The notes beneath the pieces are model-generated. The model was not told where the DNA came from and did no database searches. It was given only the letters and a program-made list of their open reading frames with translations. Below are positions 1 through 34,022 of a stretch of DNA of 34,022 nt, one piece after another. Position numbers and translations under genes: made by a program. How positions within the stretch are numbered: position 1 is the first letter of the stretch; each line of letters opens with the position of its first letter. The stretch covers positions 1 to 34,022 of the IMG/VR virus record IMGVR_UViG_3300030106_004620; one strand, given 5' to 3'. Origin of the DNA: a virus (lineage: Duplodnaviria; Caudoviricetes).

Positions 1-77
1 TCTTTAATTTTTGTATCAAAATCTAGGTTTTCAAAAGAATCTTCTGATAGTTCATCTGGGTCTACTGGGTCGAGTCT
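1..77. repeat. 77-bp exact repeat R1, copy 1 (equals 32155-32231)
   Basis: Direct base-by-base identity; the two copies diverge at 78 and 32232. Confidence 0.95.
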
Positions 78-3000
78 AAAACTTTTTTCATTTTCTTGAT
101 TAAATGCCCCACCCTTCGTAGCATAGTTTTCATTGGTATTGAGGATGTTTGTAATTCGTTTATCATCGTATCCTCTGGATTTAAGAATTTCTCTTGCCTC
201 GTCTTCATAACTTGTCTCCCTTAAAATGCTTTTTGATTTTCTTAGTTTACCAAATAATCTTTTTTCTGGAAACCATATAATTGCTTGTAAATCTGCTGGG
301 TATAATTTACTAAATTCTATGTTATTTTCCTTAACTTTTTGGTTCACTTTATCTGTTGCTATTTGCATTATTTTTCTAAATGAAATTATTTGACCCCCAT
401 TTCTTGGACTGTCTATTAACTGAACAACTTTTTTTACCAAATTGTTTACAGATAAATTTAATTCTGTTTTGTTTTTGTATCCATTATTTGCATATGGTCT
501 TAATATTTCAGAGGCCTTTGAAATAGCATAGTTATCATCTGTTTTTAATAAATCTTCATCGATATTATATTCTTTAATGATTTTTTTTCTATTATACTTA
601 AATTGTAAAGGGTATTTTTTTTCATCTAATTTTATACCAGTTTTTTTATGACCTAATTTTACAATTTGTCCTTTTGTTTTTAATAATGTATTTCTAAATC
701 TATCTATTTGAGGCTTTAAATCTTCAATGTTGTTTGTTAATTCCCCAGTTATTCTTCCCATAGTTCTCATAAACCATCTATCCATAGTTACATATTCGTA
801 AGCACCTTGCAGATTTGGATAAAAGGCACCACCTATTTTAGGACCAAATATTGCAGAACCCGGTAATTCTTGGTCTACCTTTTCTTTGCTTGGCTTATGA
901 CCAGTTATGTAGTTTATTTCTCCAGCCTTAAATCGAGTATTTAAAAATTGGTTTGCATCATCTAGTCCAAACTCTATTACCAGATTATTATATTTTACAA
1001 ATCCCTCTCTCATTGAAGGACTAACAGAACCGGCACTATCAAACTCCTCCTCTGTTTCTGGGAATCGGTTGTTTTTTTTGTAAAAGTCATATACTTGTAA
1101 TGCATATTTTAAATTAGAACTTGGTGCTTGACCGTTGCTTGTTATGGCTAATCCTACAACAAAAGTTGTTCGAGCATTTTTATCAGACAATATTTCTGGA
1201 TATATGTCTCCTAAAAGTTTTATAGCATTTTCTATATTAGTTGAATACCAAGCACCAGCATTTTTAGGATTATTAACAATTTCGTTTAAGGCTTCTCTTG
1301 TTACAACATCAGATATAATTTCTATCTGTTCATCGGTATATTCGCCAGTTTCAGTTTTTAAGTCTATGTTGTTTTCTTTTTGTAATTGTTGATTTCGTTC
1401 TACTAAATATTTTCCTATTTCTTTATTGTCAGCAAATTTCTCTACATCTATAGCATCAATTAAATCAACATTAGATAATGTTTTAACTACATCAGAAAAA
1501 TCATCAACTGCTGGTGCTAAAGCATATGACATCCTAGGATCACTTGTAGGCTCTGGATTGAATTGAGATTTAATTTGTTCTGGATAAAAAGCTACATAAA
1601 TTGTGCTTTCATCTACAGCACTGTTGTCAAATAATAACCTTTCTGTTTCCTCAGCCTTTATACCATCATAACCAAGAGATTTTATATATTTAATTAAATT
1701 TTGATTCTGTTGAAAAAGTCTAAACAATGTTTGCTTATTATCTCCACCTAAAAATTCTTTTAATGCTGATTGAGGATCGCCATAAGCATTTGGAAAATTA
1801 GGATCAGCAGTGCTTATATCACCTAAAATATTATCGCCAAAAATGTTTTTATTTCTTATATTTTTTTTACCAGTTGACTTTTTTATTAATTCTACAAATT
1901 CAATACCAGAAATTTCGTCACCAAAATCTGCATTAAGAATTAAAGGATTTTTAATGTTTAAATAAGCTGGAACAACTTGAGCATTACCACCATCCCAATT
2001 TTCTCTATTTTTAGCATACAAACTAGCCACTGATGGCGAGTCAGAAAAGAAAAATTGTGGACCTATATCGGAGCTAAAACCAAATTGTTTAAAGTCTCTA
2101 TTAGTTCCGTGATATGTTTTTAACAACTCACCATTCTCATCTCTTACTTTAGAATCTTTAAAGAACTCTTCTTGTTGTGGTGTAAGCCTAAATGACTCTT
2201 CTGGAGTTTCTTTTGGAAATATAGTGTATATATCTTCTTCAGCATCTGTTAATTCTACTCTACCAGCTTTTTTCATAGCCTCCATAATTTCAGCATTTGG
2301 TGATTGAACATTAACTGGAAATGGAGATGTTTTTAACTCGTTTTTAAAATACTCTGTTGCTATTCCTTTTCTTTGAAAATCTGGATGAACAGCAAAGCCA
2401 TCGATTGGGTATGGAGATGATCCACTGCTGTGATATGCAATTACTGGTTTACCCTTGTAATTAAGTATTTCTGCAGTTTCACCATATCCAGTTGATGCTT
2501 CAGAAAAACCAGCCTTTTTTAATTCTGATTTTGTCATATCTCCACCATCCTCTAAGTTTTCAACTATAGTTGGTGTAAGTCTAAATGACTCTTCTGGTGA
2601 TTTCGTATCCTCAGCCGTTTCCACTGTCTCAACATCTTCTACTGGATCAGTAATTATAGGGTCGCCTCCTTTAAAAAGAAAAGCAGTGTTTACTCCATCG
2701 CTTTGCATTCCTAAGATTTCATCAAATTCTTTAACAATATTATCTGGTAATGCAACTATATCCTTTAGACCAACTTCATCATTAGCATACCCTAAATAAT
2801 TAAAAGTATACCATTTAGAAAACAACTCAATACCTCTTGGGCCACCAATATTATTATTGTCTAAAAGAGTCCCCATACCTCCTATCCAGTTATCTATTTT
2901 TGATTTAAGTTCTGGATTTTCTGTTTCAAGTTTTTTATAGAGGATTTCGACAACTTCCTCAACGTATACGTCTTGATTTGCTCCTTTAGTGAGTACGATT

Positions 3001-4451
3001 CTCCCTCCGGAACTATTATATATGTTGCTTCCGAGCGTTTTGACTTTGTATAATTTTTTTCCTTCTTCATATCCATCTTCTCCTTCTTTAATTCTTGAAA
3101 TTTCAAATTTTCTAGGATCGTAATATCTATCTAATAAATCTTGATCAGACATAATTGATGTTGGTACATCAACATAGAAATCAAAGTCAACGTCTTCAAA
3201 GTTAGGGTTATCTGTAATTAACTCATTAAATATCATCATATTTAAAGGTATCTCAACTCCAGTTTCTATTTCTTTTTTTCTATTTTTATCAGCTACATCA
3301 TAAGGGTTAATTTTTTTAATAAAATCTTTATCTTCTGTTAATTTTTTAACATATTCATAATCTTCTTTTTTGTTAAAATTTTCTTCTTTTATATTAATCT
3401 TAACATTGCCTTTATCGTCAACTTCTAAAAAATTAGGTAGAAGTAAATTTTCTCCTTCTGTTATTTTTTTTAAAATTGGTTTATTTTTTTTATTATTTAT
3501 CCTTGTAAAAGTACCACTAGCACTACCACCTAAAACTGACCCAATAGAGGCACTTGTTACTGTTCTTTCCCACCACTCATCATCTGTAATATCTCTATAA
3601 GTTCCTTCTGCTGTCAAAGAAGTTATTTCATCAATACCCTCTTGCAAACTTTCAGCTAATCCACCTTTTAACATTTCTAATGGCACATCTTTATGTAGTC
3701 CTTTTTTAAAAATTTTATTAAAGAAAACATCTCTAGCAAGTTTTGGATTTTTATTGTAACTATTAAATAAACTAGATGGTCCATAGTTTGTAGCAAAACT
3801 TACTAAACTCACCAATGATGAAAGCCTTCCAGCTTCTTGTGGATTTACATCGTATTCTCTAGCAGTTTGATATGTGTCTGAATACATTAAAGAGCTTCCA
3901 TAAAATGCACCACTTGCTGGACCCATAAAATATGAAGTTCCTACTTGAGTTAAAAATGTAGGAATAGTTTGAGCTAGTTGATCAACCCATTTTCCTTCTA
4001 TTTCAATATCATCTAATTTGTAATATTTATCATAAAACTTTTTTTGATCATTTATCCAGCTAGAAATTTTGTCCTCAGATACAATTTTTTCTTGTTCTTT
4101 TTCAGACCTTTGAGTATATAAACCATTAGGCCCAAGCTCCGTATTTATAAATCCTTCTTTTTTAAGTATAGGATTAATAATTGCTGGAGTTAAAAATGGC
4201 GTAATTGTTTTTTTATAGTTTTCTAAAAAATCATATGCTTTTTTATATTCTTGATGATTGGGATCGTCTGTGTTTAAATCATAATCTCCCATCTTGTACC
4301 CATAAGGACTTGTAGTAAAAGTCTCGTAGTATGATTGAGGTATCTCAAAAGCTAAATTTTTAGGCAATTCTAGTAAGCCTTTACCGAATGCTTTTAATGT
4401 GCTTTTATCTGGAAGTTCATCCCAAAATGATTTTTCTTTTTTTTCTGACAT
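1..4451 (-). CDS. Giant polyvalent internal virion (ejection) protein, N-terminal part plus cassette A. It runs off the window start and continues in frame at 32154..29988 (about 2205 aa in total).
   Basis: Missing from the ORF track because it has no stop inside the window. ATG at 4451 overlaps the previous stop (TAATG). Manual translation is open from MSEKKEKSFWDELP to ...SFRLDPVDPDELSEDSFENLDFDTKIKE, identical to the sequence inside ORF 29988..33950. It follows the tail and internal virion genes. Confidence 0.9.
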   Translation of the reverse strand, partial: MSEKKEKSFWDELPDKSTLKAFGKGLLELPKNLAFEIPQSYYETFTTSPYGYKMGDYDLNTDDPNHQEYKKAYDFLENYKKTITPFLTPAIINPILKKEGFINTELGPNGLYTQRSEKEQEKIVSEDKISSWINDQKKFYDKYYKLDDIEIEGKWVDQLAQTIPTFLTQVGTSYFMGPASGAFYGSSLMYSDTYQTAREYDVNPQEAGRLSSLVSLVSFATNYGPSSLFNSYNKNPKLARDVFFNKIFKKGLHKDVPLEMLKGGLAESLQEGIDEITSLTAEGTYRDITDDEWWERTVTSASIGSVLGGSASGTFTRINNKKNKPILKKITEGENLLLPNFLEVDDKGNVKINIKEENFNKKEDYEYVKKLTEDKDFIKKINPYDVADKNRKKEIETGVEIPLNMMIFNELITDNPNFEDVDFDFYVDVPTSIMSDQDLLDRYYDPRKFEISRIKEGEDGYEEGKKLYKVKTLGSNIYNSSGGRIVLTKGANQDVYVEEVVEILYKKLETENPELKSKIDNWIGGMGTLLDNNNIGGPRGIELFSKWYTFNYLGYANDEVGLKDIVALPDNIVKEFDEILGMQSDGVNTAFLFKGGDPIITDPVEDVETVETAEDTKSPEESFRLTPTIVENLEDGGDMTKSELKKAGFSEASTGYGETAEILNYKGKPVIAYHSSGSSPYPIDGFAVHPDFQRKGIATEYFKNELKTSPFPVNVQSPNAEIMEAMKKAGRVELTDAEEDIYTIFPKETPEESFRLTPQQEEFFKDSKVRDENGELLKTYHGTNRDFKQFGFSSDIGPQFFFSDSPSVASLYAKNRENWDGGNAQVVPAYLNIKNPLILNADFGDEISGIEFVELIKKSTGKKNIRNKNIFGDNILGDISTADPNFPNAYGDPQSALKEFLGGDNKQTLFRLFQQNQNLIKYIKSLGYDGIKAEETERLLFDNSAVDESTIYVAFYPEQIKSQFNPEPTSDPRMSYALAPAVDDFSDVVKTLSNVDLIDAIDVEKFADNKEIGKYLVERNQQLQKENNIDLKTETGEYTDEQIEIISDVVTREALNEIVNNPKNAGAWYSTNIENAIKLLGDIYPEILSDKNARTTFVVGLAITSNGQAPSSNLKYALQVYDFYKKNNRFPETEEEFDSAGSVSPSMREGFVKYNNLVIEFGLDDANQFLNTRFKAGEINYITGHKPSKEKVDQELPGSAIFGPKIGGAFYPNLQGAYEYVTMDRWFMRTMGRITGELTNNIEDLKPQIDRFRNTLLKTKGQIVKLGHKKTGIKLDEKKYPLQFKYNRKKIIKEYNIDEDLLKTDDNYAISKASEILRPYANNGYKNKTELNLSVNNLVKKVVQLIDSPRNGGQIISFRKIMQIATDKVNQKVKENNIEFSKLYPADLQAIIWFPEKRLFGKLRKSKSILRETSYEDEAREILKSRGYDDKRITNILNTNENYATKGGAFNQENEKSFRLDPVDPDELSEDSFENLDFDTKIK
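78..1525 (-). other. Variable cassette A of the giant protein: putative HhH-GPD/DNA-glycosylase-like domain
   Basis: Motifs WYSTNI, LAITSNGQAPSSNLKYA, GPKIGGAFYPNLQG-x4-VTMDRWFMR and ADLQAIIW. Confidence 0.55.
1526..1604. repeat. 79-bp exact repeat R2, copy 1 (equals 33944-34022)
   Basis: Direct identity with the last 79 bases of the window. Confidence 0.95.
1533..2177 (-). other. ADP-ribosyltransferase-like domain (ART of polyvalent proteins) within the giant protein
   Basis: Motifs LLKTYHGT, FFFSDSPSVASLYA, VVPAYLNIKNPL, LGYDGI and YVAFYPEQIKS. Confidence 0.8.
2178..2597. repeat. 27-bp direct repeats (2178-2204 and 2571-2597, 26/27 identical) encoding PEESFRLTP
   Basis: tggtgtaag[c/t]ctaaatgactcttctgg occurs twice, 393 bp (131 codons) apart. 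Confidence 0.92.
2205..2570 (-). other. GNAT acetyltransferase-like domain within the giant protein
   Basis: IDGFAVHPDFQRKGIATEYF matches GNAT motif A (V-x-P-x-x-Q/R-x-x-G-x-A/G). Confidence 0.75.
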
Positions 4452-5554
4452 TATTTTACTGACTCTTGCTGTGATTTAACATAACCAAACCAGCTGTCTT
4501 TTAAACTTTTTAATGCTTTTAAAAAGAATCCTTCTTCTTTATCTTCAACCACACTAGTTTTTTTAATTGAATCTATTTGCTTAACTAGCATAGGGTCTAA
4601 ATTCAGAAGTTCCATTGTTGCTCTGTCTATCTTCTTTTCATCATTATTTTTTACTGCTCTTTCTAACATACTCATATATATTTTTATTTCATCTTGTCTC
4701 TTATTATATTGAGTTGCAGTTTCTGATTTTGTTTTAGAAAATAAACCATTAACAACACTGTAATCTAGTTTCATATTTGGTTCTTTAGGTTTGTACATTT
4801 TTTTCAATTCTTCTATTTTAGCTTTACTTAAATAAACACTACCACTTTCTAAATCTTTAAAAAGTATATTTGATTTCATATAGTCTGGAAGATTTGCAAC
4901 ATCAATCCTATAAGGTCTCTCTACTGTTTCTTTTGTGTAATCAGTTTCTTTTTCTTCTTCTTTTCCTTTTTTCTCTAAAATTCCCTTAATTGGATCGTAC
5001 TCTATATCACTCATTTTATCTGCATATTTTGATTTTAATTGATTCATACTTGTTGTACTTAAATAAATACTATCTCCGGGTGTGTTTGAAATCATAGGGT
5101 CTTTTAAATATATAGGATTTAGCATTGTTTTATCAATAAGATTATGCCTTGTGATTGAAGGCTTTGATAAATCTGTAACTGGTTTATCTTCTTCTTTTAA
5201 TTTTTTTAATGCAGAAGGCAGATAGCTTTCAGCTAAGTCTTTATCAGTTTTTTTAAGATTTACGTTTTGTCTTACAGAATCCAACATTGCTTCTCTTGTT
5301 AGTTCATCAGCATTTTGATAAGAAGGAGTTTGTGTTAGTATGTTTGCATATATTCTAAAATCTTTACTAGCTTGAGGTTCGTTTTTAATTAATTTTTGAA
5401 TATTTTGAACGTGCTTTATTCCATCTTGTGGACTTAGTGAAAGTTGTTTTTGGTTTAGTTTATTTGCATTAACATAAGCCTTGACTTCTCTTGGTAGCTG
5501 AGGATCGTCAAAATCTACCCCTAAAATTGATTCTATTGTAGATTTGTATTCCAT
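4451..5554 (-). CDS. Putative internal virion/ejection protein
   Basis: 367-aa ORF, translationally coupled on both sides, between the tail genes and the giant protein. Confidence 0.55.
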   Translation of the reverse strand: MEYKSTIESILGVDFDDPQLPREVKAYVNANKLNQKQLSLSPQDGIKHVQNIQKLIKNEPQASKDFRIYANILTQTPSYQNADELTREAMLDSVRQNVNLKKTDKDLAESYLPSALKKLKEEDKPVTDLSKPSITRHNLIDKTMLNPIYLKDPMISNTPGDSIYLSTTSMNQLKSKYADKMSDIEYDPIKGILEKKGKEEEKETDYTKETVERPYRIDVANLPDYMKSNILFKDLESGSVYLSKAKIEELKKMYKPKEPNMKLDYSVVNGLFSKTKSETATQYNKRQDEIKIYMSMLERAVKNNDEKKIDRATMELLNLDPMLVKQIDSIKKTSVVEDKEEGFFLKALKSLKDSWFGYVKSQQESVK

Positions 5555-19570: not shown

Positions 19571-19622
19571 AAAAAAAAAATAAAAAAAATACTTGCATCA
19601 TATTACTTTAAGTGTTTAACTT
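19571..19622 (+). promoter_or_regulatory. Sigma70-like early promoter with A-tract UP element
   Basis: A-tracts at 19571-19589, TTGCAT at 19593-19598, then TTAACT or TAACTT at 17-18 bp spacing; resembles the site at 27894-27935. Confidence 0.55.
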
Positions 19623-19656: not shown

Positions 19657-19878
19657 ATGAAAATAAATAAAACTTACTTAAAAAATGGTGTTGAGATTGA
19701 TTTCCCTATGATAAGTGCTTTAGGTGAAACAGAAACAAGTAAAGCAATAAGATATTCAGAGGGGATGTTTCAGTTTTACAACTTTAAAACTGGTGAGGTT
19801 ATATATCAATCTGAAACATTAAAAGATGTTGTTAATTACACCAATACAAAATATAATCTGAATGATTCTGTAGCATAA
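19657..19878 (+). CDS. Hypothetical early protein (73 aa)
   Basis: Start reassigned to ATG 19657 after TTGGAGATTCAA. Confidence 0.8.
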   Translation: MKINKTYLKNGVEIDFPMISALGETETSKAIRYSEGMFQFYNFKTGEVIYQSETLKDVVNYTNTKYNLNDSVA

Positions 19879-19879
19879 A

Positions 19880-19935
19880 TCCTACTGATGAGGGTGGTCT
19901 CATATGAGGTCACCTAGAAACCGAGAGGTCTAGGA
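19880..19935 (+). ncRNA. Hammerhead ribozyme, type I (HH1); predicted cleavage after C19930
   Basis: Stem I UCCUA/UAGGA, core CUGAUGA (19885-19891), 10-bp stem II, A-GAAA, stem III CC-GAGA-GG, then GUC. Confidence 0.85.
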
Positions 19936-19965
19936 AACTTTTCCTAAGTTAAATTGGAGATAAAA

Positions 19966-20238
19966 ATGGAAATAAGAGCAAGAGAGTTAGTGTTAAATGA
20001 ATTATCAATGGCTAGAGAAGAAAAACAAAAAAAACTAGGGTTCATACCTCGAATGCAAGAAATGGCTAAAATAGACCAAGAATGTGTTGATGTAACAGAT
20101 GAAGTGAAAGCAGAATTAGCTAGTCTACACGAAGTTAGTATGGCTTTGCATAGGATAGAAATAAAGGCTTTGGATGTAAGGATAAGTTGGCTAGAAGATA
20201 TGATAATAACTAATTCAGTAGATAAGGAGTTGAAATAA
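19966..20238 (+). CDS. Hypothetical helical/coiled-coil protein
   Basis: Start reassigned to ATG 19966 after TTGGAGATAAAA. Confidence 0.8.
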   Translation: MEIRARELVLNELSMAREEKQKKLGFIPRMQEMAKIDQECVDVTDEVKAELASLHEVSMALHRIEIKALDVRISWLEDMIITNSVDKELK

Positions 20239-21098
20239 TGAAATATATAGTATTTGAAAACACAGAAAATTACGAAGACAGCATAGTTTTGATAGCAGAT
20301 AAAAATATAAAAACTATAGAAAATCCAGATAATAATATTAAAGCTGGATATGGTAATTACAAAATTCACGAACCAAGTGGTGGATTAGTATTTGACAATC
20401 TTAGATTATTACGACATTTTTTTGAAGGTGCAAGAGATGTGTTTGGAGAAGGTGATAGTTGTTATGGTTCACCAACAGATGATGAGAAAATGAAACGTAA
20501 AACTATGACTTGTTTTATTTATGAATTTTTAACTGCAAGTCATATAAAAAGAGAGATGGAATTAGAAGGTGGTTTAAATGTTGGTTTGTATTATATTGAA
20601 GATGACCAAGATAGCGAAACTTATAATTCTTACCTAGATTATATAAATTTTATAGAAAGAGAATTACATTTAAAAAAATCAAATAAACCAGAGGAAGGTA
20701 AGGTATATGCTCTTACTGGTGGTGTTGGTGATAAGTGTATTGCTAATGGTGATAGTTGGAAAGATAGTGTAGTTCAGAATGATGAGCCTAAAACCTTTAA
20801 AATTATCAGATTCTTTAAAGATGATGATAGACCTAACATAGTGCTTCTAACTGGACTTACTTTTGAACAAGCACAGAACCATTGTCAAGACCCAGATACA
20901 TCTGGTGATGGATGGTTTGATGGCTATGAAAGTGATGTAGTTCAAAATGATGAGCCTCAAGATTTCGAGGGTCATTGTCCAAAATGTGATAGTGATAATT
21001 TAGATAATGTTAGTGGTGGTGTTGAATATACTGATATGGCTTGTGATGATTGTGGTCATAAATTTGGTATTGAATGTAAAGGTTGGGTCATATCATAA
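20238..21098 (+). CDS. Multi-module hypothetical protein with C-terminal Zn ribbon
   Basis: 286 aa, CPKC...CDDC near the C-terminus, internal VVQNDEP repeat. Confidence 0.8.
   Translation: MKYIVFENTENYEDSIVLIADKNIKTIENPDNNIKAGYGNYKIHEPSGGLVFDNLRLLRHFFEGARDVFGEGDSCYGSPTDDEKMKRKTMTCFIYEFLTASHIKREMELEGGLNVGLYYIEDDQDSETYNSYLDYINFIERELHLKKSNKPEEGKVYALTGGVGDKCIANGDSWKDSVVQNDEPKTFKIIRFFKDDDRPNIVLLTGLTFEQAQNHCQDPDTSGDGWFDGYESDVVQNDEPQDFEGHCPKCDSDNLDNVSGGVEYTDMACDDCGHKFGIECKGWVIS
20768..20957. repeat. 22-bp direct repeats (20768-20789 and 20936-20957, 21/22 identical)
   Basis: tgtagttca[g/a]aatgatgagcct, 168 bp (56 codons) apart. Confidence 0.9.
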
Positions 21099-21099
21099 A

Positions 21100-21152
21100 T
21101 CCACTGATGAGGGAGGTCTCTTTGAGGTCTCCCAGAAACCGAGAGGTCTGGA
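21100..21152 (+). ncRNA. Hammerhead ribozyme, type I (HH2); predicted cleavage after C21148
   Basis: Stem I UCCA/UGGA, CUGAUGA (21104-21110), stem II GGGAGGUCUC/GAGGUCUCCC, A-GAAA, CC-GAGA-GG, GUC; compensatory changes relative to HH1. Confidence 0.85.
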
Positions 21153-21176
21153 AATATTAATTAAAGGAGATTCAAA

Positions 21177-21539
21177 ATGTTAACAAGTAAGCAAATAGAT
21201 GTGATCCCAGATACTAATACTGGAATAGTAAGAGAGGTTGTAGAGGCTATGTTTCATAACAATTATGGTGAATATGAGGCATTAAAAACTGCGAGGTATA
21301 ATTACTATAGGGCAGAGAAAAATGACTTTAAATCTGACCTATTTATAATCTTTAAATACAAAGGTAAGATTGTAGAGGTTGAAGGTCAGTGGTATGGTAG
21401 AGAAAATGATGAGTGTTGGTTTGATACTTACAACTGGAGTGTTAAAGTAAAAAACAAATCAACAGATTGGGATTATAAATATATATCATTAGATAGTTTA
21501 TATTCATTTAATATTAATTCAATTAGGGAGATAAAATAA
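21177..21539 (+). CDS. Hypothetical early protein
   Basis: 120 aa, AAGGAGATTCAAAATG start context. Confidence 0.8.
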   Translation: MLTSKQIDVIPDTNTGIVREVVEAMFHNNYGEYEALKTARYNYYRAEKNDFKSDLFIIFKYKGKIVEVEGQWYGRENDECWFDTYNWSVKVKNKSTDWDYKYISLDSLYSFNINSIREIK

Positions 21540-21706
21540 TGAAATATATGATGACTATTTCAATGAGTGTTGCATTAGTTCTATGGAGTATCATAATGTT
21601 TAATCATATGTATAGAGGGTTAAACTGGATACCTTTATTCCCAATCTGGTTGTTTATGATTGTGTGTCTATGGGTTACCTATAGAACCGATAGTAGTAAA
21701 TGGTAA
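21539..21706 (+). CDS. Small two-helix membrane protein (55 aa)
   Basis: MKYMMTISMSVALVLWSIIMFNHMYRGLNWIPLFPIWLFMIVCLWVTYRTDSSKW; GGAG RBS and TAATG coupling. Confidence 0.75.
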   Translation: MKYMMTISMSVALVLWSIIMFNHMYRGLNWIPLFPIWLFMIVCLWVTYRTDSSKW

Positions 21707-21771
21707 TTTGAAATGCCTCTACCCAGAGGCATAATGTAAGAGTGGCTCTCTTGCATCTGATGATAAAGCCG
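21707..21771 (+). ncRNA. Hammerhead ribozyme, type II with pseudoknot (HH3); predicted cleavage after A21733
   Basis: GAAA (21710-21713), stem III UGCCUCU/AGAGGCA, UA, 9-bp stem I AUGUAAGAG/CUCUUGCAU, CUGAUGA (21757-21763); loop UGGCU can pair with the 3' AGCCG. Confidence 0.85.
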
Positions 21772-21786
21772 TATAAGGAGATTCAA

Positions 21787-22293
21787 ATGAGTATAACTAG
21801 ATGTTTAGATTGTGAAAGAAGAATTGACATAGATATAGAAGATGCGCACTATGTGAATGATTCTGAATGTTTATGTGAGGATTGTTACTATGATGATGAG
21901 GTTATAGCAACAATGGTAATAGGTGATGAAAAATATTATAAAACCAGCTATAGATTGTTTAATAAATATGGTGATGATGATGTTCCAGAGGTAATCAAAA
22001 ATTATGCAAATTCTGTGAAATATCATTCAACAAATGGATGGAGAGGTTATTATGAAGGTGAAATTCCATCTGGTTATAATCTGGTTAAATCTAAATGGTT
22101 CTGTGGTATGGATGGTCATAATATGGATGATTTTATGTTAAATCTAAATGATATATTAGATAATAATCCAGAACGATTATCTGGTTTTGATTACTTTGTG
22201 GTAGTTCTACCAACAACAAATGTATTCAGCCAGAACCTTGAGGTGTATGTTAACAACAGTCAAAAAGATAAATTTATAGAGGAGATAAAATAA
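21787..22293 (+). CDS. Hypothetical protein with N-terminal Zn finger
   Basis: Start reassigned to ATG 21787 after AAGGAGATTCAA; CLDC...CEDC, and STNGWRGYY. Confidence 0.8.
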   Translation: MSITRCLDCERRIDIDIEDAHYVNDSECLCEDCYYDDEVIATMVIGDEKYYKTSYRLFNKYGDDDVPEVIKNYANSVKYHSTNGWRGYYEGEIPSGYNLVKSKWFCGMDGHNMDDFMLNLNDILDNNPERLSGFDYFVVVLPTTNVFSQNLEVYVNNSQKDKFIEEIK

Positions 22294-22763
22294 TGAATAT
22301 ATTAGATGATATATTAAATGATAAGAATGTAAACAATAACTTAAAAAAAGTAATGAAAGGAGATGCTATGAGTAAGATGAGCGATTTAGCAATGGAGCGA
22401 GATCAAATGTTTGACGGCACTGAAGGAATGTCTGAAGAACAATTAGAAAAAGATATGAACGAACAATATGTTGAGCATATGGGTAGAAATATTCTTAAAA
22501 AAGTTCGTTTGGAATTAGGCTATAGCCAAAAGCAAATGGCTGATGCTTTAGGTTATACCAGACAAGATATTATTTCTGGAATTGAAAATGGTAACAGAAC
22601 AATGTCTGGTGTAGCAGTTAGATGTTTGGAATATCTAATTCAAATCAAAGACTTAAAAGAATATAAAAATAATATTAAATCAACTATAGATTGGGCAGAA
22701 GGTAAATGGGGTGTCGGTGAATCTACAGATAATATTATAGTTGAGGAAATAAAGAAACTTTAA
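22293..22763 (+). CDS. XRE-family helix-turn-helix regulator
   Basis: LKKVRLELGYSQKQMADALGYTRQDIISGIENG; a second possible start at MSKMSD with its own AAGGAG. Confidence 0.85.
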   Translation: MNILDDILNDKNVNNNLKKVMKGDAMSKMSDLAMERDQMFDGTEGMSEEQLEKDMNEQYVEHMGRNILKKVRLELGYSQKQMADALGYTRQDIISGIENGNRTMSGVAVRCLEYLIQIKDLKEYKNNIKSTIDWAEGKWGVGESTDNIIVEEIKKL

Positions 22764-29535: not shown

Positions 29536-29991
29536 TTAATCCTTGTTTGCTTTTAAAAAGTGTTCAGTTGTCCCTTTTCCTTTTTCTGTGTTATAGTATT
29601 GTTTCCAGTATTCTGCTCTAAATTTTTTACTTCTAGGTATAGGCTCTGGAACTCTTCTGTAGTGAAGTCTACATAGACATACAGCAACAGCAATGTTTGT
29701 TTTTAAACTAAATTCTAAGTCCAGAGGGTCAACACCAAAATAAATTAAAGCCTCAACTAATGACGGCCTATATTCTACATAGTTATTAAATATATCTCTA
29801 GCTGTATCTGGCTCTATTTGAAAAAAACTTAAAGCTGGACCACCACCTTTTTGTACCAAAGCTCTATATCCAGACTCAGCCATACCAGTTTCATATATTA
29901 AGTTAACAGCCTCTTCCGTAACTGGTATTTTTGTTAATTTTTCTAATTTTTCTAAAACCTCAATAATTATATTTTTTATATCTTTTTTCAT
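29536..29991 (-). CDS. Putative endolysin (lysozyme/transglycosylase-like fold)
   Basis: ES motif followed by GPALSFFQIEP-x-T, and AEYWKQYYNT-x2-GKGT; upstream of membrane genes. Confidence 0.7.
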   Translation of the reverse strand: MKKDIKNIIIEVLEKLEKLTKIPVTEEAVNLIYETGMAESGYRALVQKGGGPALSFFQIEPDTARDIFNNYVEYRPSLVEALIYFGVDPLDLEFSLKTNIAVAVCLCRLHYRRVPEPIPRSKKFRAEYWKQYYNTEKGKGTTEHFLKANKD

Positions 29992-32900
29992 TTTGTGTAT
30001 AATTGTTTTAATCTTTTAGTATAAAGACTAGGTGTTATAAGATTGTTATCTAGTGCATCTATTAATACATTTTCATACATATCAATACTAGCATTTGATA
30101 AAGTTTCTTTTTTTAAGTCTTCTTTTAATTGTTTTAATTGTAAAGATGTTGTTTTTTCTATGTTTGATTCGCTACGCTCAAAAGGATAGTAAGGCCTATC
30201 TTTAAATGCATCAACACTAGGCGTTATCCAAAAACCAACCTTACCTACAACTGGTATTCTTTGCATTAAATCAAAGTAAGTTTCTTTTATTTCTTCGCCT
30301 CTCATATCTTCAAATTCTTCGTCTGTCATACTTTCTTTAGTTTTTTCTAAAGATATGTTCTTCCTAAGCCTTTCAATATCTGTAAGTAATTCTTCTCCAA
30401 CTGAAAAAGATGGAGGCCCTACAAATTTATTTATTATACCACGAAACCCATATCTTTCTACTTGATATATATGATACCTACTAGCACCTATAAATTGTAA
30501 AAGATTATCAAATGCATAATCGCTTATATTTTTTATAGGTCTTAATAAAATTAAATCTTTTAAAGCATCTTTTGGAACACCAGCTACAAGAAACATCATT
30601 AAAAATCTTGTAAAGTTTGCAAAACCTAGTGCTTTTTCTTTGTATGTTTTTGCATTTTTTATATCATTTACAATTTTTCTACGAATCACATCTAACTGTC
30701 TTATTGTAAAAGTTTTCAATTGATAAAGTAGCCTTCCTTTGTTAGCATTTAAATATCCTTGAGGCATTTCTGATTGTGTTACTGGTTGATGGTCTAATAA
30801 TTTATTAAAAACTAAAATTTGCACATCTTCAGTTACAATTCCATCTGCAAAATCTTGTATAAGTTGATTAATTTTTTCTTGATCTTTTGTGTCAAAATAA
30901 CTTTCTATATCTTTTTTGAATTGCTTAGAAATTTTTCCAGATTTAGCCTCTTTAGAATATCTATTGTAAATAGAATTAATTAAAGTTTCTTTACCCAGCC
31001 TATCTATTTTACTTAAGCCAACTATTTTAAATATACTATCAACAGCTTTTCCAGTTCCTCTGTTGGATGTAAATTCTTGCCCAATTTTCTCAATTCCTAT
31101 ATCTTCTATTTTTATTTTTTTAGTAGTAACTAAAGTTCCTAAAGTTTCAAAAAAACCAGCTTGGTCTAAACTGTAGGCTAAGTCTCCTATTTGTGTTATA
31201 GCAGAAATAAAACTCCCCATTGTAAGAATATATGTACTATTCTTAATATCTGAAATAATTGGACTTGTTGCTTGTGGATTTAATCTTGAATTTAAAACTT
31301 CTTTAAGAGTTTGCTCTTGCTTTACTGTGAGAGGAGTTCTTTCATTAACTTCTACAATAAATTTAGCTATAGCATTTTCATTAATTTCTCCTTGACCAAT
31401 AAACTTTCTTTTTTCTATAACATCAGTCATATTTTCTATGTAGTTCATTAAAGCTTCAGAAGAAGGTCTATAAAACTTATTAATTTCACTGTCTATAATT
31501 TTGACTGTTCTAGGTTTAGCAGATTTAGGATCGCCAGAATTAAGAGTTTTGTAGCCTCTCATTATCATACTCATTATATGCTCTTTTTCTTCTATTGTTA
31601 AAGGCTCTCCATTTTTCTTTTCAATAGCTTCTTTTTGTAGTCTGTTATAAAGAGTTTGCAAGTTAGGGTCTATGTTAAAAATTGTCTGCCTTAATCCATC
31701 TAAATCATCTAAACTTCTAGGAATATAATTTTCTATAAATCCAATATCTCCACCAGTGTCAATATAGTCTTGACGAATTTGATCAAGCATTATTCTTAAT
31801 GTATTATACTCTTTTTCTAATCCATACTTGTTTATTAATTCATCTATTTTAGGTTGATGTGAGTTTTTAAAAGCTAAATCCAGATAATAAAAATCTTCCT
31901 CTGTCATATTTTTTGCTTTGTCAAAAAAATTGAAAACAACTTCTCTGCGAAATTTAGTTTTTTGCAGTAAGTCGTATTCAAAATCTCTAAGTTTTCTTTT
32001 TAATATAGGATCAATGCCTTCTAAAACTGAAGATATTGGCTTTAAAATTATTTCTAGCTGTCTTAAAGCATCTCTTTCTTTTGTTAGAGTGCTTATTATC
32101 TTGTTTTTAATTTTATCTTTAAAAGGCTCTTCGCTTGGAGGGGTTTCAAATATTTCTTTAATTTTTGTATCAAAATCTAGGTTTTCAAAAGAATCTTCTG
32201 ATAGTTCATCTGGGTCTACTGGGTCGAGTCTGTAACTTTCGTTGTTTTTGCTGATTTCTTTTTCGATGAGGGATTCAATTTTCCTTGAACTATTTTCCAG
32301 CCTCGTTTGTATACCTCGTCCGTATCTTTGAACCAGCCTTTCAATGTAATCTTGCCCATTATTTTTTTCCTCCCAATTATTATTACTTTCAAGCATATCG
32401 CCTAATGCCATTTTTATATCTATGTTGCCATCAAAATCTTGTAGCGATTCTTTGTGTAAATTTATAAAATCTTCTGTTTCTTTCAAAATGTAATCTGCTT
32501 TTTCTTTTACCCTTGTTATTTTTGAAGGTGCTTTAAAGTTAGTTATTACACTTAAAGCTGGTATTTTTTTACCTTCAACCATAACGTAGTCAGAAGATGC
32601 TCCAGAAATAACATCCGGTGCTACTTCTCTTAATTTTTTATAAAACTCATCTTGTTTTTTTAAATTTTTAAAATTACCATCTACATCATAAAAATATAGT
32701 ATAGTATTTTTACCAGTAGGATTATTCTTACTGCCTACAATAGAAGTTTGTTGTGCAAGATAACCCAAAATATCTATAAACGATTTAATACCATCTTTAG
32801 ATGCTATAGTAGTAATAGTTGTGGTTGGTTCAGCAGAATAGTCTTTCCAAAAACCTTGTTTATGAAAGTCAACATTAGACTTCACTCCAGTTATTTTAGA

Positions 32901-34022
32901 TGCTATTTTTATAATAGATTCATTAATTTTTTTTGTTATTTTTAATTGATCATCAAAAGTCATATCATATATTTGTGGAAACTTTTTAGAATACGGAGTT
33001 CCTTCTCCAAAAACTAATGCAGATGTAATTTTTTGTGTATTGCTAAGTATTGCATCTCCCATTGTTCCTCCAGCATCTACACCATAGTCACCTAAGAAAT
33101 TTATGACATTTACCCAGTCTACTGCTTGAACTTGTTGAGTTGTCCACTTTTGACCCATCCAATTAATATCATTTAATTTTTTTGTTAGTTTGTTACCAAA
33201 AGCAGAAGTGTTTTCATATTGAGTTTCTGTTGGATTTCCTCCAAAATCAACAGATAAAGATTTTAGTTTGTTTTTACCAAAGGCTCTTACTAGTGCATTA
33301 TAAAATGCTGAGTCTATAAAACCTCTCCCTCTTGATGTATGAATATCAGCAGTATATGGAGAACCACCTTTAGGATCATTTCCCATAAGATATCTTGTGT
33401 TATTCCCTATTGCAGAATCTATAAAATCAAATAATTTTTGACCAATTCCACCTTTAATTTTTCCATCTTCTGTAAACAACTGTCTAACTGCTTCATCGTT
33501 TAAACCAGCTTTTTTATTTCCTTTTAAATTGCTTGTTTCTTCTTCGTAAGCTAATAATAAATTGTTAATTGCACCTTCTGGTGACTCATTTACTTGAGTT
33601 ACCAATGAACCTAAAACAAATTTTATTGCACTTTCTGGAGACCCGTCAGTCAAAGGCTGAATATCTTCTATGTAATTGTCATACCAGACTCTTGCTTCCA
33701 TTATTTGTTCTAAAGTCATATTATTTTCTACATCTTTTATCCACTGATTAATAGTTTTATTTCCAACTGTCATTCTATAGTTGTCATTAACTAAAGTTTT
33801 AGATTTGTTTTTTGGTTCTCCAATTTTAGGGTCTCTATTAATTTTTTTCCGAAGATTTGATTCGGTATCTTTGTCTGGCAGAACAGAATATATATTGTCT
33901 CTTACTTCATCACCTTTGTATTCTGGATTTGGTTCTATTCTAAATGACATCCTAGGATCACTTGTAGGCTCTGGATTGAATTGAGATTTAATTTGTTCTG
34001 GATAAAAAGCTACATAAATTGT
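29988..34022 (-). CDS. Giant polyvalent virion protein, cassette B plus constant C-terminal region. It is 5'-partial and joins the N-terminal part at 4451..1605 (about 2293 aa in total).
   Basis: The frame stays open upstream of ATG 33950 to the window end (TIYVAFYPEQIKSQFNPEPTSDPR-MSF), identical to the end of the ART domain at 1604-1526. Confidence 0.9.
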   Translation of the reverse strand, partial: TIYVAFYPEQIKSQFNPEPTSDPRMSFRIEPNPEYKGDEVRDNIYSVLPDKDTESNLRKKINRDPKIGEPKNKSKTLVNDNYRMTVGNKTINQWIKDVENNMTLEQIMEARVWYDNYIEDIQPLTDGSPESAIKFVLGSLVTQVNESPEGAINNLLLAYEEETSNLKGNKKAGLNDEAVRQLFTEDGKIKGGIGQKLFDFIDSAIGNNTRYLMGNDPKGGSPYTADIHTSRGRGFIDSAFYNALVRAFGKNKLKSLSVDFGGNPTETQYENTSAFGNKLTKKLNDINWMGQKWTTQQVQAVDWVNVINFLGDYGVDAGGTMGDAILSNTQKITSALVFGEGTPYSKKFPQIYDMTFDDQLKITKKINESIIKIASKITGVKSNVDFHKQGFWKDYSAEPTTTITTIASKDGIKSFIDILGYLAQQTSIVGSKNNPTGKNTILYFYDVDGNFKNLKKQDEFYKKLREVAPDVISGASSDYVMVEGKKIPALSVITNFKAPSKITRVKEKADYILKETEDFINLHKESLQDFDGNIDIKMALGDMLESNNNWEEKNNGQDYIERLVQRYGRGIQTRLENSSRKIESLIEKEISKNNESYRLDPVDPDELSEDSFENLDFDTKIKEIFETPPSEEPFKDKIKNKIISTLTKERDALRQLEIILKPISSVLEGIDPILKRKLRDFEYDLLQKTKFRREVVFNFFDKAKNMTEEDFYYLDLAFKNSHQPKIDELINKYGLEKEYNTLRIMLDQIRQDYIDTGGDIGFIENYIPRSLDDLDGLRQTIFNIDPNLQTLYNRLQKEAIEKKNGEPLTIEEKEHIMSMIMRGYKTLNSGDPKSAKPRTVKIIDSEINKFYRPSSEALMNYIENMTDVIEKRKFIGQGEINENAIAKFIVEVNERTPLTVKQEQTLKEVLNSRLNPQATSPIISDIKNSTYILTMGSFISAITQIGDLAYSLDQAGFFETLGTLVTTKKIKIEDIGIEKIGQEFTSNRGTGKAVDSIFKIVGLSKIDRLGKETLINSIYNRYSKEAKSGKISKQFKKDIESYFDTKDQEKINQLIQDFADGIVTEDVQILVFNKLLDHQPVTQSEMPQGYLNANKGRLLYQLKTFTIRQLDVIRRKIVNDIKNAKTYKEKALGFANFTRFLMMFLVAGVPKDALKDLILLRPIKNISDYAFDNLLQFIGASRYHIYQVERYGFRGIINKFVGPPSFSVGEELLTDIERLRKNISLEKTKESMTDEEFEDMRGEEIKETYFDLMQRIPVVGKVGFWITPSVDAFKDRPYYPFERSESNIEKTTSLQLKQLKEDLKKETLSNASIDMYENVLIDALDNNLITPSLYTKRLKQLYTK
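32155..32231. repeat. R1 copy 2 (equals 1-77)
   Basis: Exact identity. Confidence 0.95.
32232..33943 (-). other. Variable cassette B: glycosylase-like domain plus additional alpha/beta domain(s)
   Basis: VWYD, GIGQKLFDF, TADIHTSR and QQVQAVDW parallel the cassette A motifs. Confidence 0.5.
33944..34022. repeat. R2 copy 2 (equals 1526-1604)
   Basis: Exact identity. Confidence 0.95.

What the first reader, a model, noticed from the sequence alone, without database searches (positions are those of the whole stretch)
19880..21771. Early phage operon punctuated by three hammerhead ribozymes at gene boundaries
Seen in sequence: three complete hammerhead cores lie on the coding strand within 1.9 kb. 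Each starts 0-2 nt after a stop codon (19878, 21098, 21706) and ends shortly before a GGAGAT RBS. HH1 and HH2 show compensatory changes (stem II U-A to A-U and G-U to G-C; stem I UCCUA/UAGGA to UCCA/UGGA). Established: CUGANGA/GAAA/UH with three stems is the hammerhead core, cleavage leaves 5'-OH and 2',3'-cyclic phosphate, and hammerheads have been reported in phage and metagenomic DNA. Inference: the phage cuts its early polycistronic RNA into 1-2-gene units without host nucleases, analogous to RNase III processing of T7 early RNA.
Basis: partly seen in the sequence, partly recalled or inferred. Interest (0 to 1): 0.9.

Follow-up and report, generated by a model that had tools for sequence, protein, structure and literature searches.

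The report
Variant hammerhead ribozymes punctuate phage operon
All three real gaps between genes in a seven-gene phage operon hold a hammerhead RNA motif that likely cuts the long message into one- and two-gene pieces, a layout described in 2011, but two of them carry an extra A in the catalytic core that recurs in related phages and that I did not find in print.

Summary
Observation largely confirmed. A descriptor scan finds exactly three hammerheads in this 34-kb phage contig, against 0.025 expected by chance. They fill the operon's three real intergenic gaps; the other three junctions are TAATG overlaps.

HH3 is a pseudoknotted type II with a U after A9, a known kind of insertion. HH1 and HH2 are type I with an unpaired A just before G12.

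That variant is a family: 28 copies, 21 distinct. All 21 have a U.G/C-G step in stem II, and the upstream stop codon lies 1 nt before stem I in 14 of 18. Related phages keep the slot but swap genes; four complete slots hold 1, 1, 0 and 1 hammerheads, so cutting looks dispensable.

Clustered prophage hammerheads that process polycistronic RNA are published (PMC3088659), and this scan noted the layout before on other DNA (e1-9706807, e1-3288895). Cleavage is untested. HH1 has a competing fold, and one RNA-library contig spans a relative's HH3 cut site. 'Early' is inferred. Verdict: known layout, probably new core variant.

The parts
19593..19622 (+). Promoter-like TTGCAT-18 nt-TAACTT with upstream A tracts; likely start of the operon transcript
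   Evidence: Seen by eye; similar sites head the operon in 6 of 13 related loci printed (coordinates). The consensus scanner did not list it.
19657..19878 (+). Gene 1, 73 aa, unknown; its UAA stop is part of the UAAA just before HH1 stem I
   Evidence: ATG ORF; no PHROG, Pfam or NCBIfam hit
19880..19935 (+). HH1: type I hammerhead, stems 5/10/3 bp, extra A at 19916 before G12, predicted cut after C19930
   Evidence: the hammerhead fold is 1.3 kcal/mol above the MFE alone and 2.4 with flanks
19966..21098 (+). Genes 2 (90 aa, 19966-20238) and 3 (286 aa, 20238-21098), joined by a TAATG overlap; unknown function
   Evidence: no hit above a curated cut-off
21100..21152 (+). HH2: type I hammerhead, stems 4/10/3 bp, extra A at 21134 before G12, predicted cut after C21148
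   Evidence: it is the MFE fold of 21096-21160
21177..21706 (+). Genes 4 (120 aa, 21177-21539) and 5 (55 aa, 21539-21706), TAATG overlap; unknown function
21707..21771 (+). HH3: type II hammerhead, stems I/II/III 9/3/8 bp, U inserted at 21764 after A9, pseudoknot of loop I UGGCU (21743-21747) with AGCCG (21767-21771), predicted cut after A21733
   Evidence: (z = -3.09); loop and tail match the Rfam Hammerhead_II consensus printed
21787..22763 (+). Genes 6 (168 aa, 21787-22293, unknown) and 7 (156 aa, XRE-type helix-turn-helix protein), TAATG overlap; end of the + strand operon
   Evidence: PF01381 E 4.8e-7; phrog_3; Atlas gave only hits under 0.9 for gene 6

Best explanation
Three hammerhead motifs fill the three real gene gaps of a seven-gene phage operon and likely cut its transcript, without host nucleases, into units of 1, 2, 2 and 2 genes.

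Shown: the folds and their positions, the TAATG coupling of genes within each unit, an RBS after each cut site, and conservation of the folds in related phages with different genes.

From established hammerhead chemistry (G12 general base, G8 2'-OH general acid; PMC11300833): a cut would leave the upstream piece ending in the stem II/III hairpins (stem III for HH3) with a 2',3'-cyclic phosphate, and the downstream piece starting with a 5'-OH leader 28, 35 or 53 nt before its AUG.

Inferred: these ends act like a terminator hairpin that lets the polymerase read on, setting stability and translation of each unit separately. The extra A of HH1/HH2 is likely looped out and offset by a tertiary contact between the A-rich flanks of stem I (5' UAAA, which includes the stop codon, and 3' AA) and the conserved U.G/C-G step in stem II.
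For: Chance is excluded: 3 found against 0.025 expected. Hammerheads occupy 3 of 3 real gaps and 0 of 3 overlap junctions.

Extra-A family: 28 copies, 21 distinct; all 21 parse with full stems I and II, though they were picked for that. On 9 of the 21, 96.6% of cells pair, 6 of 17 pairs change on both sides, and 0 of 500 shuffles reach the covariation score; slid controls pair at most 56% (relatedness not controlled).

HH3 family: 6 copies, 5 distinct, with stem II UUU/AAA, GCC/GGC or UGUC/GACA and pseudoknots that change on both sides. An insertion after A9 is tolerated and U there raised the rate 3-4-fold in a viroid hammerhead (PMC3705267 passages).

Flanking genes vary: 49 flanking ORFs fall into 43 families. 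Syntenic phages hold extra-A or consensus hammerheads in the same slot. Predicted RBS accessibility rises after cutting: 0.70 to 0.93, 0.44 to 0.58, 0.36 to 0.59. Precedent: tandem prophage hammerheads cleave ~2-kb polycistronic RNAs in vitro, and one set in vivo (PMC3088659 section 6).
Against: No cleavage datum exists here. An insertion next to the general base G12 is untested, and Perreault's insertions A6a and G2a/C2b cut slowly (section 8; passages).

HH1's hammerhead fold is not the predicted ground state: stem I and II pair probabilities are 0.10-0.20, and its 3' product can form a hairpin (19931-19946) that competes with stem I. With flanks, stem I probability is 0.10 for HH1 and 0.12 for HH2. 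HH1 and HH2 fold no better than shuffles (z -0.45, -0.64). The three stem III pairs never vary in the alignment, so they show no covariation.

A 443-nt contig from an RNA library spans the HH3 cut site of a relative whose HH3 differs only in loop III; it may be DNA or uncut RNA. Of 4 complete slots found through the terminase, one has no hammerhead and three have one each. The closest (L212, terminase 85%) lacks HH1 and HH2 and joins the gene 4 homologue by a TAATG overlap instead.
Confidence: 0.64

Rival explanations
1. HH1 and HH2 are slow or dead as ribozymes and are kept as structured boundary elements (stabilising hairpins or protein/nuclease sites); only HH3 cuts efficiently.
For: Untested insertion beside G12; competing folds; 3-bp stem III; Perreault's other insertion variants were slow. 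CUGAUGA and GAAA were demanded by most of my search patterns, so their invariance in the family is not independent evidence.
Against: The A15.1-U16.1 pair and H17 (C or U, never G) parse in all 21, and stem III stays paired with changing loops. In one search, which did not demand the 3' half, the full 3' core was present in 5 extra-A loci of 18. Extra-A and consensus hammerheads occupy equivalent positions in the same loci (L154, L161).
Confidence: 0.15
2. Cleavage is gated by translation termination: a ribosome on the upstream UAA would cover stem I and the CUGAUGA core and hold the RNA in an inactive fold, so cutting depends on whether and when the upstream gene is translated.
For: TAA closing 35 or more open codons lies exactly 1 nt before stem I in 14 of 18 distinct members found without demanding TAAA, against 155 of 1898 TAAA sites in the same loci. 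Alternative folds lie within 0-2.4 kcal/mol for HH1 and HH2.
Against: The control does not allow for intergenic position or relatedness. A compact genome that reuses a structural UAAA as a stop explains the same spacing. Four of 18 lack it, and consensus hammerheads show similar spacing. No switch-like fold is shared by all members.
Confidence: 0.1
3. The ribozymes are near-neutral passengers at the 3' end of exchangeable gene cassettes; their shared sequence and the GGAGAT-AAATG motif mainly serve as recombination boundaries.
For: Counts of 0 to 3 per slot. An identical HH3 precedes a different gene in L190/L212. RNA-library contigs leave the window at 21099 into another RBS, and another joins 20792 to 21527, skipping HH2 and gene 4. 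The phage encodes a Sak-like annealing protein.
Against: Recombination would not select for base pairing, the U.G/C-G step or a covarying pseudoknot. The breakpoints seen lie at RBS motifs or just outside the ribozymes. This can hold alongside cleavage.
Confidence: 0.08
4. HH1 and HH2 work as a double hammerhead or excise and religate the 1.2-kb piece between them into a circular RNA.
For: Short stem III is the mark of dimeric type I hammerheads (PMC4209133 passages); two near-identical copies lie in tandem.
Against: Both loops are non-palindromic GAGA tetraloops; most related loci hold a single copy; Perreault looked for spliced or circular products and found none.
Confidence: 0.03

Closest known systems
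Clustered hammerhead ribozymes flanking genes in prophage operons (Perreault et al. 2011, PMC3088659: Clostridium scindens, Azorhizobium caulinodans, Agrobacterium tumefaciens triple arrangement)
   Same: Several hammerheads of mixed type within about 2 kb, flanking one- or two-gene blocks of changing identity; same proposed job of cutting a long phage RNA.
   Different: Here all three cores carry an insertion. An A between 11.1 and G12 is not among the variants named in section 8 (U3-A8, A6C, A6a, U13a, U15.1-A16.1, U10.1-U11.1) or section 9 (G2a/C2b). No activity data exist here.
Pseudoknotted type II hammerhead (Rfam RF02276 Hammerhead_II; Perreault 2011; a pseudoknot hammerhead structure in PMC11300833)
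   Same: HH3 has closed stems I and III, a short open stem II, and loop I UGGCU pairing with a 3' AGCC tail, as in the Rfam consensus.
   Different: U inserted after A9 and an A-U stem II. HH3 itself gets no Rfam hit, while a U-insert relative in L201 scores 40.9 against a gathering score of 37.
Extra residue between A9 and G10.1 (chrysanthemum chlorotic mottle viroid plus hammerhead; Penelope-like element hammerheads)
   Same: Same position as HH3's U; tolerated, and U was 3-4-fold faster (PMC3705267, PMC1636495, PMC4209133 passages).
   Different: HH1 and HH2 carry the extra base on the other strand, before G12. Ten of 21 family members have an A on both sides.
RNase III processing of T7 early RNA (recalled, no call)
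   Same: A long phage transcript cut between genes into short mRNAs with 3' hairpins.
   Different: Needs a host protein and leaves 5'-phosphate ends; here the RNA would cut itself and leave 5'-OH.

Membership tests
Hammerhead ribozyme class | CUGANGA and GAAA core boxes in permitted order | tested here: met
   CUGAUGA and GAAA in all three
Hammerhead ribozyme class | UH cleavage triplet with A15.1-U16.1 pair | tested here: met
   GUC, GUC and AUA; A-U pair closes stem III
Hammerhead ribozyme class | Three helices around the core | tested here: met
   Stems 5/10/3, 4/10/3 and 9/3/8; two-sided changes in stems I and II, none in stem III
Hammerhead ribozyme class (consensus core) | 10.1-11.1 pair directly flanking A9 and G12 with no extra base | tested here: not met
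   Extra A at 19916 and 21134, extra U at 21764; filed as a core variant, not as consensus
Hammerhead ribozyme class | [quoted passage not shown] | tested here: inconclusive
   HH3: pseudoknot with two-sided changes in relatives. HH1/HH2: no common loop-loop contact or pseudoknot seen; U.G/C-G step in 21 of 21 against 1 of 6 type I without the extra base only suggests a contact
Hammerhead ribozyme class | Site-specific, core-dependent self-cleavage | not testable with these tools
   Only contigs, not raw reads, were available
Rfam hammerhead families (clan CL00010) | Score at or above the gathering threshold | tested here: not met
   No hit; consensus type I relatives in L139 and L154 were also missed
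Clustered prophage/phage hammerheads (Perreault 2011) | Several copies flanking short gene blocks in phage DNA, genes not constant | tested here: met
   Portal, terminase and head genes; 49 flanking ORFs in 43 families; syntenic slots differ
Dimeric type I hammerheads of retroelements | 1-2 bp stem III with a palindromic loop, in tandem repeats | tested here: not met
   GAGA loops in HH1 and HH2; most related loci hold one copy
Phage early operon | Transcribed first by host polymerase | not testable with these tools
   Promoter-like site shared with 6 of 13 relatives by eye; scanner negative

The most novel reading that the evidence does not exclude
HH1 and HH2 define an undescribed structural subclass of type I hammerhead: an A before the general base G12, a U.G/C-G receptor in stem II docked by the A-rich flanks of stem I, and the upstream gene's UAA stop built into that contact, so that a terminating ribosome gates cleavage. 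This would be a natural translation-coupled ribozyme at phage gene ends. The subclass alone (active, own tertiary contact, no gating) I put at about 0.35, with interest about 0.55.
Probability: 0.12. Interest if true: 0.72.

Novelty: new variant of a known kind. Interest (0 to 1): 0.42.

Why it matters
The role of bacterial and phage self-cleaving ribozymes is still open (PMC6765202 section 13). This operon is a tidy test case: three of three gaps carry a ribozyme, and natural relatives have one or none. If the extra-A core cuts, it widens the hammerhead consensus at a position next to the general base, and strict descriptors would have missed the family. It would also point to a new tertiary contact worth a structure. 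The layout itself is not a discovery.

Tried and rejected
Rfam over the window and the region: no hammerhead; rejected as evidence of novelty because consensus type I relatives were missed too. ARAGORN: no tRNA, so no tRNA-linked ribozyme context. Promoter and terminator scan: at chance level (23 found, 26.5 expected).

Searches that found nothing useful. The exact HH1/HH2 pattern in viral contigs gave 0. Gene 6 relatives in viral contigs: 0 of 7 candidates confirmed. Cultured phages by blastn: only short chance matches. Genome contigs: 16 pattern matches, none an extra-A hammerhead, so no host was identified. Terminase homologues gave no usable host name. The Atlas gave no hit of 0.9 or more for gene 6 and did not answer for gene 3.

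RNA evidence. One run held 0.11 of the words, as contigs only. No listed contig covered the HH1 or HH2 core; a hole proves nothing. The loop change in the relative's HH3 (ACCC to GGGT) is the reverse complement, so probably one inversion; I do not count it as four neutral changes.

Readings rejected. A U10.1-U11.1 mismatch for HH3: relatives with GCC/GGC stems fit only the insertion. A G10.1-A11.1 mismatch with a shifted stem for HH1/HH2: it fails in L095 and L121. My own covariance model found no fourth copy in the window.

Literature searches for the extra-A variant: 0 papers; 0; for the layout. The library lacks most subscription papers.

Full report
Setting. The window is a single 34,022-nt contig and is its own whole assembly, with a terminal repeat of at least 50 nt. 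It is a tailed phage: head, portal, terminase, Sak-like annealing, exonuclease and replication-initiation genes all lie on the - strand. A seven-gene + strand island runs from 19657 to 22763 and ends in an XRE-type HTH gene. The other six genes have no hit above a curated cut-off. A promoter-like TTGCAT-18 nt-TAACTT with A tracts heads it and resembles sites in 6 of 13 related loci by eye; the scanner did not list it. 'Early' is therefore an inference. No host was found.

Observation. A three-topology descriptor that allows one inserted base finds exactly three hammerheads in the window, with stem sums 17, 16 and 19; 40 shuffles gave 0.025 at sum >=12 and 0 at >=14. They start 1, 1 and 0 nt after stop codons. 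The operon has three real gaps (87, 78, 80 nt), each with a hammerhead, and three TAATG overlaps without one. But each core has an extra base: A19916 and A21134 between stem II and G12, and U21764 after A9. Rfam finds none of the three; it also missed consensus type I relatives.

The extra-A family. I scanned public contigs with patterns. Metagenomes: 120 matches, scan cut at 46 of 64 parts; 6 had the single extra A with full stems and 2 had AA, and two of these loci held a second copy. Viral contigs: 1 of 3 loci, 5 of 18 loci and 10 of 26 loci. Genomes: 0 of 16. With the window's two this gives 28 copies and 21 distinct sequences. L085 is identical to HH2 and its proteins are 100% identical to the window's, so it is not independent. 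Ten have G.Y plus the extra A, ten have A facing A, and one has G-C plus AA. Searches demanded the A; one search did not, and there 5 loci had it while 4 loci (L128, L134, L138, L139) held hammerheads without it.

Conserved features of the family. All 21 carry a U.G pair followed by C-G, 5-6 nt into stem II, and 20 of 21 have G-C five pairs inside it. The pattern demanded TC...GG, which accounts for 8 of the 21; the other 13 have it unasked. Only 1 of 6 distinct type I hammerheads without a base before G12 in my loci has it. On 9 of the 21 (G-type; I left out the ten A.A members, L095a and L121 because their register differs), 96.6% of cells pair and 6 of 17 pairs change on both sides; 0 of 500 shuffles reach the score. 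That control ignores relatedness, the two stem I changes partly reflect an indel, and stem III never varies. A UAA closing 35 or more open codons lies 1 nt before stem I in 14 of 18 distinct members found without demanding TAAA, against 155 of 1898 TAAA sites; this control does not allow for intergenic position. My inference is that the A-rich flanks of stem I dock at the U.G/C-G step; no call tests this.

HH3. It is a type II hammerhead with loop I UGGCU able to pair with AGCCG, as in Rfam's Hammerhead_II consensus. Six copies (five distinct) in the window and the 211 loci then held share the U after A9, with stem II UUU/AAA, GCC/GGC or UGUC/GACA and pseudoknot strands that change together; the pattern demanded the U and tail for L190, L208 and one L201 site. 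Stems I and III are in the MFE fold, z = -3.09. An insertion at this position is known, and U there is favourable.

Relatives. The 49 ORFs flanking these ribozymes fall into 43 families. Six related loci share the slot next to the terminase genes, five of them also showing HTH or NinG genes. A search by terminase, blind to ribozymes, gave 16 loci. Four span the whole slot and hold 1, 1, 0 and 1 hammerheads; two partial ones hold one each; ten end before or early in the slot and show none. Three of the 16 are contigs already found by pattern. The closest, L212, has an identical HH3 before a different gene, no HH1 or HH2, and its gene 4 homologue (95%) joined by a TAATG overlap.

RNA data. One metatranscriptome run held a small share of the region, as contigs only. 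Twelve contigs were laid. One leaves the window at 21099 straight into another GGAGAT site, and one joins 20792 to 21527; both suggest relatives without HH2. A 443-nt contig spans the HH3 cut site; its only HH3 changes are four loop III bases, against 25 listed changes in the 60 nt of gene upstream. The loop change is an exact reverse complement, probably one inversion. The spanning contig counts weakly against complete cutting of HH3, but it may be DNA. Nothing here shows RNA ends.

Folding caveats. HH2's MFE is the hammerhead and HH1's is not. HH1's hammerhead lies 1.3 kcal/mol above the MFE with pair probabilities of 0.1-0.2 in stems I and II, and its 3' product can fold a hairpin that competes with stem I. 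With flanks, stem I is weak in both (0.10, 0.12). These models ignore tertiary contacts and folding order. Predicted RBS access rises modestly after each cut.

Mechanism. Most likely (0.64) all three cut, giving units of 1, 2, 2 and 2 genes, each with a structured 3' end and a 5'-OH leader. That 5'-OH ends resist 5'-end-dependent decay and that T7 uses RNase III for the same purpose are recalled, not from calls. Rivals: HH1 and HH2 slow or dead (0.15), gating by terminating ribosomes (0.10), passengers at cassette boundaries (0.08), dimer or circle formation (0.03).

What is known. Of PMC3088659 I saw passages, sections 6 and 8 and part 1 of section 11, scrambled figure text of supplements S5-S7 and only the first part of Dataset S1. 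Its alignments (pages 651 onward) and one .doc file could not be read and may contain extra-A members. It describes and tests clustered prophage hammerheads. PMC6765202 (passages and section 13) and PMC6155905 (passages) call their role open. I saw passages only of PMC1636495, PMC3705267, PMC4209133, PMC11300833, PMC4075628, PMC2632901 and PMC13725137. I found no description of an A inserted before G12 in searches, but the library lacks most subscription papers. I recall, without a call, that some plant satellite RNA hammerheads have a mismatch inserted at the base of stem II, which would resemble the A.A form.

Earlier scan notes. The layout was noted on other genomes (e1-9706807, e1-3288895). 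One note (e1-6239489) reports an extra core A 'already noted in print' without showing the position, so I could not compare it. A sequence look-up with HH1 found nothing.

Verdict. Real, ordinary in layout, and probably a new core variant with its own conserved features. Interest 0.42.

Noticed in passing
window 1-4475 (-) and 29988-33950 (-): A 1491-codon open frame runs off the left end; with the terminal repeat it continues at the right end, next to a 1320-aa ORF. None of the large proteins scanned there has a PHROG hit.
   Followed up: no
window 20238-21098: Gene 3 looks modular: VVQNDEP occurs twice (residues 178, 234), different segments match different relatives, and an RNA-library contig joint falls at 20792, just after the first copy. 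A possible recombination hinge.
   Followed up: partly
window 19931-19946: After the HH1 cut, the new 5' end can fold a 6-bp hairpin (-6.9 kcal/mol for the fragment) that would block religation and cap the downstream RNA; not seen in L093.
   Followed up: partly
window 21721-21724: A relative has the HH3 loop III as its exact reverse complement, a likely micro-inversion between the hairpin arms.
   Followed up: no
window 21760-21762: The AUG inside HH3's CUGAUGA core is in frame with gene 6; no RBS precedes it.
   Followed up: no
L095:288-598 (+): Two extra-A hammerheads 234 nt apart share a 13-nt loop II of near-identical sequence and lack the upstream stop codon; their context seems to differ from the phage operons.
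   Followed up: no
L201 (-), L154 (-), L161 (-), L139 (-): Other phage contigs with two or three clustered hammerheads of mixed core type; L201 has three type II with a U after A9.
   Followed up: partly
L161:1639-1711 (-): A type I hammerhead with the family's stem II wobble but the extra base (U) after A9 instead of before G12, suggesting that the insertion can switch sides.
   Followed up: no
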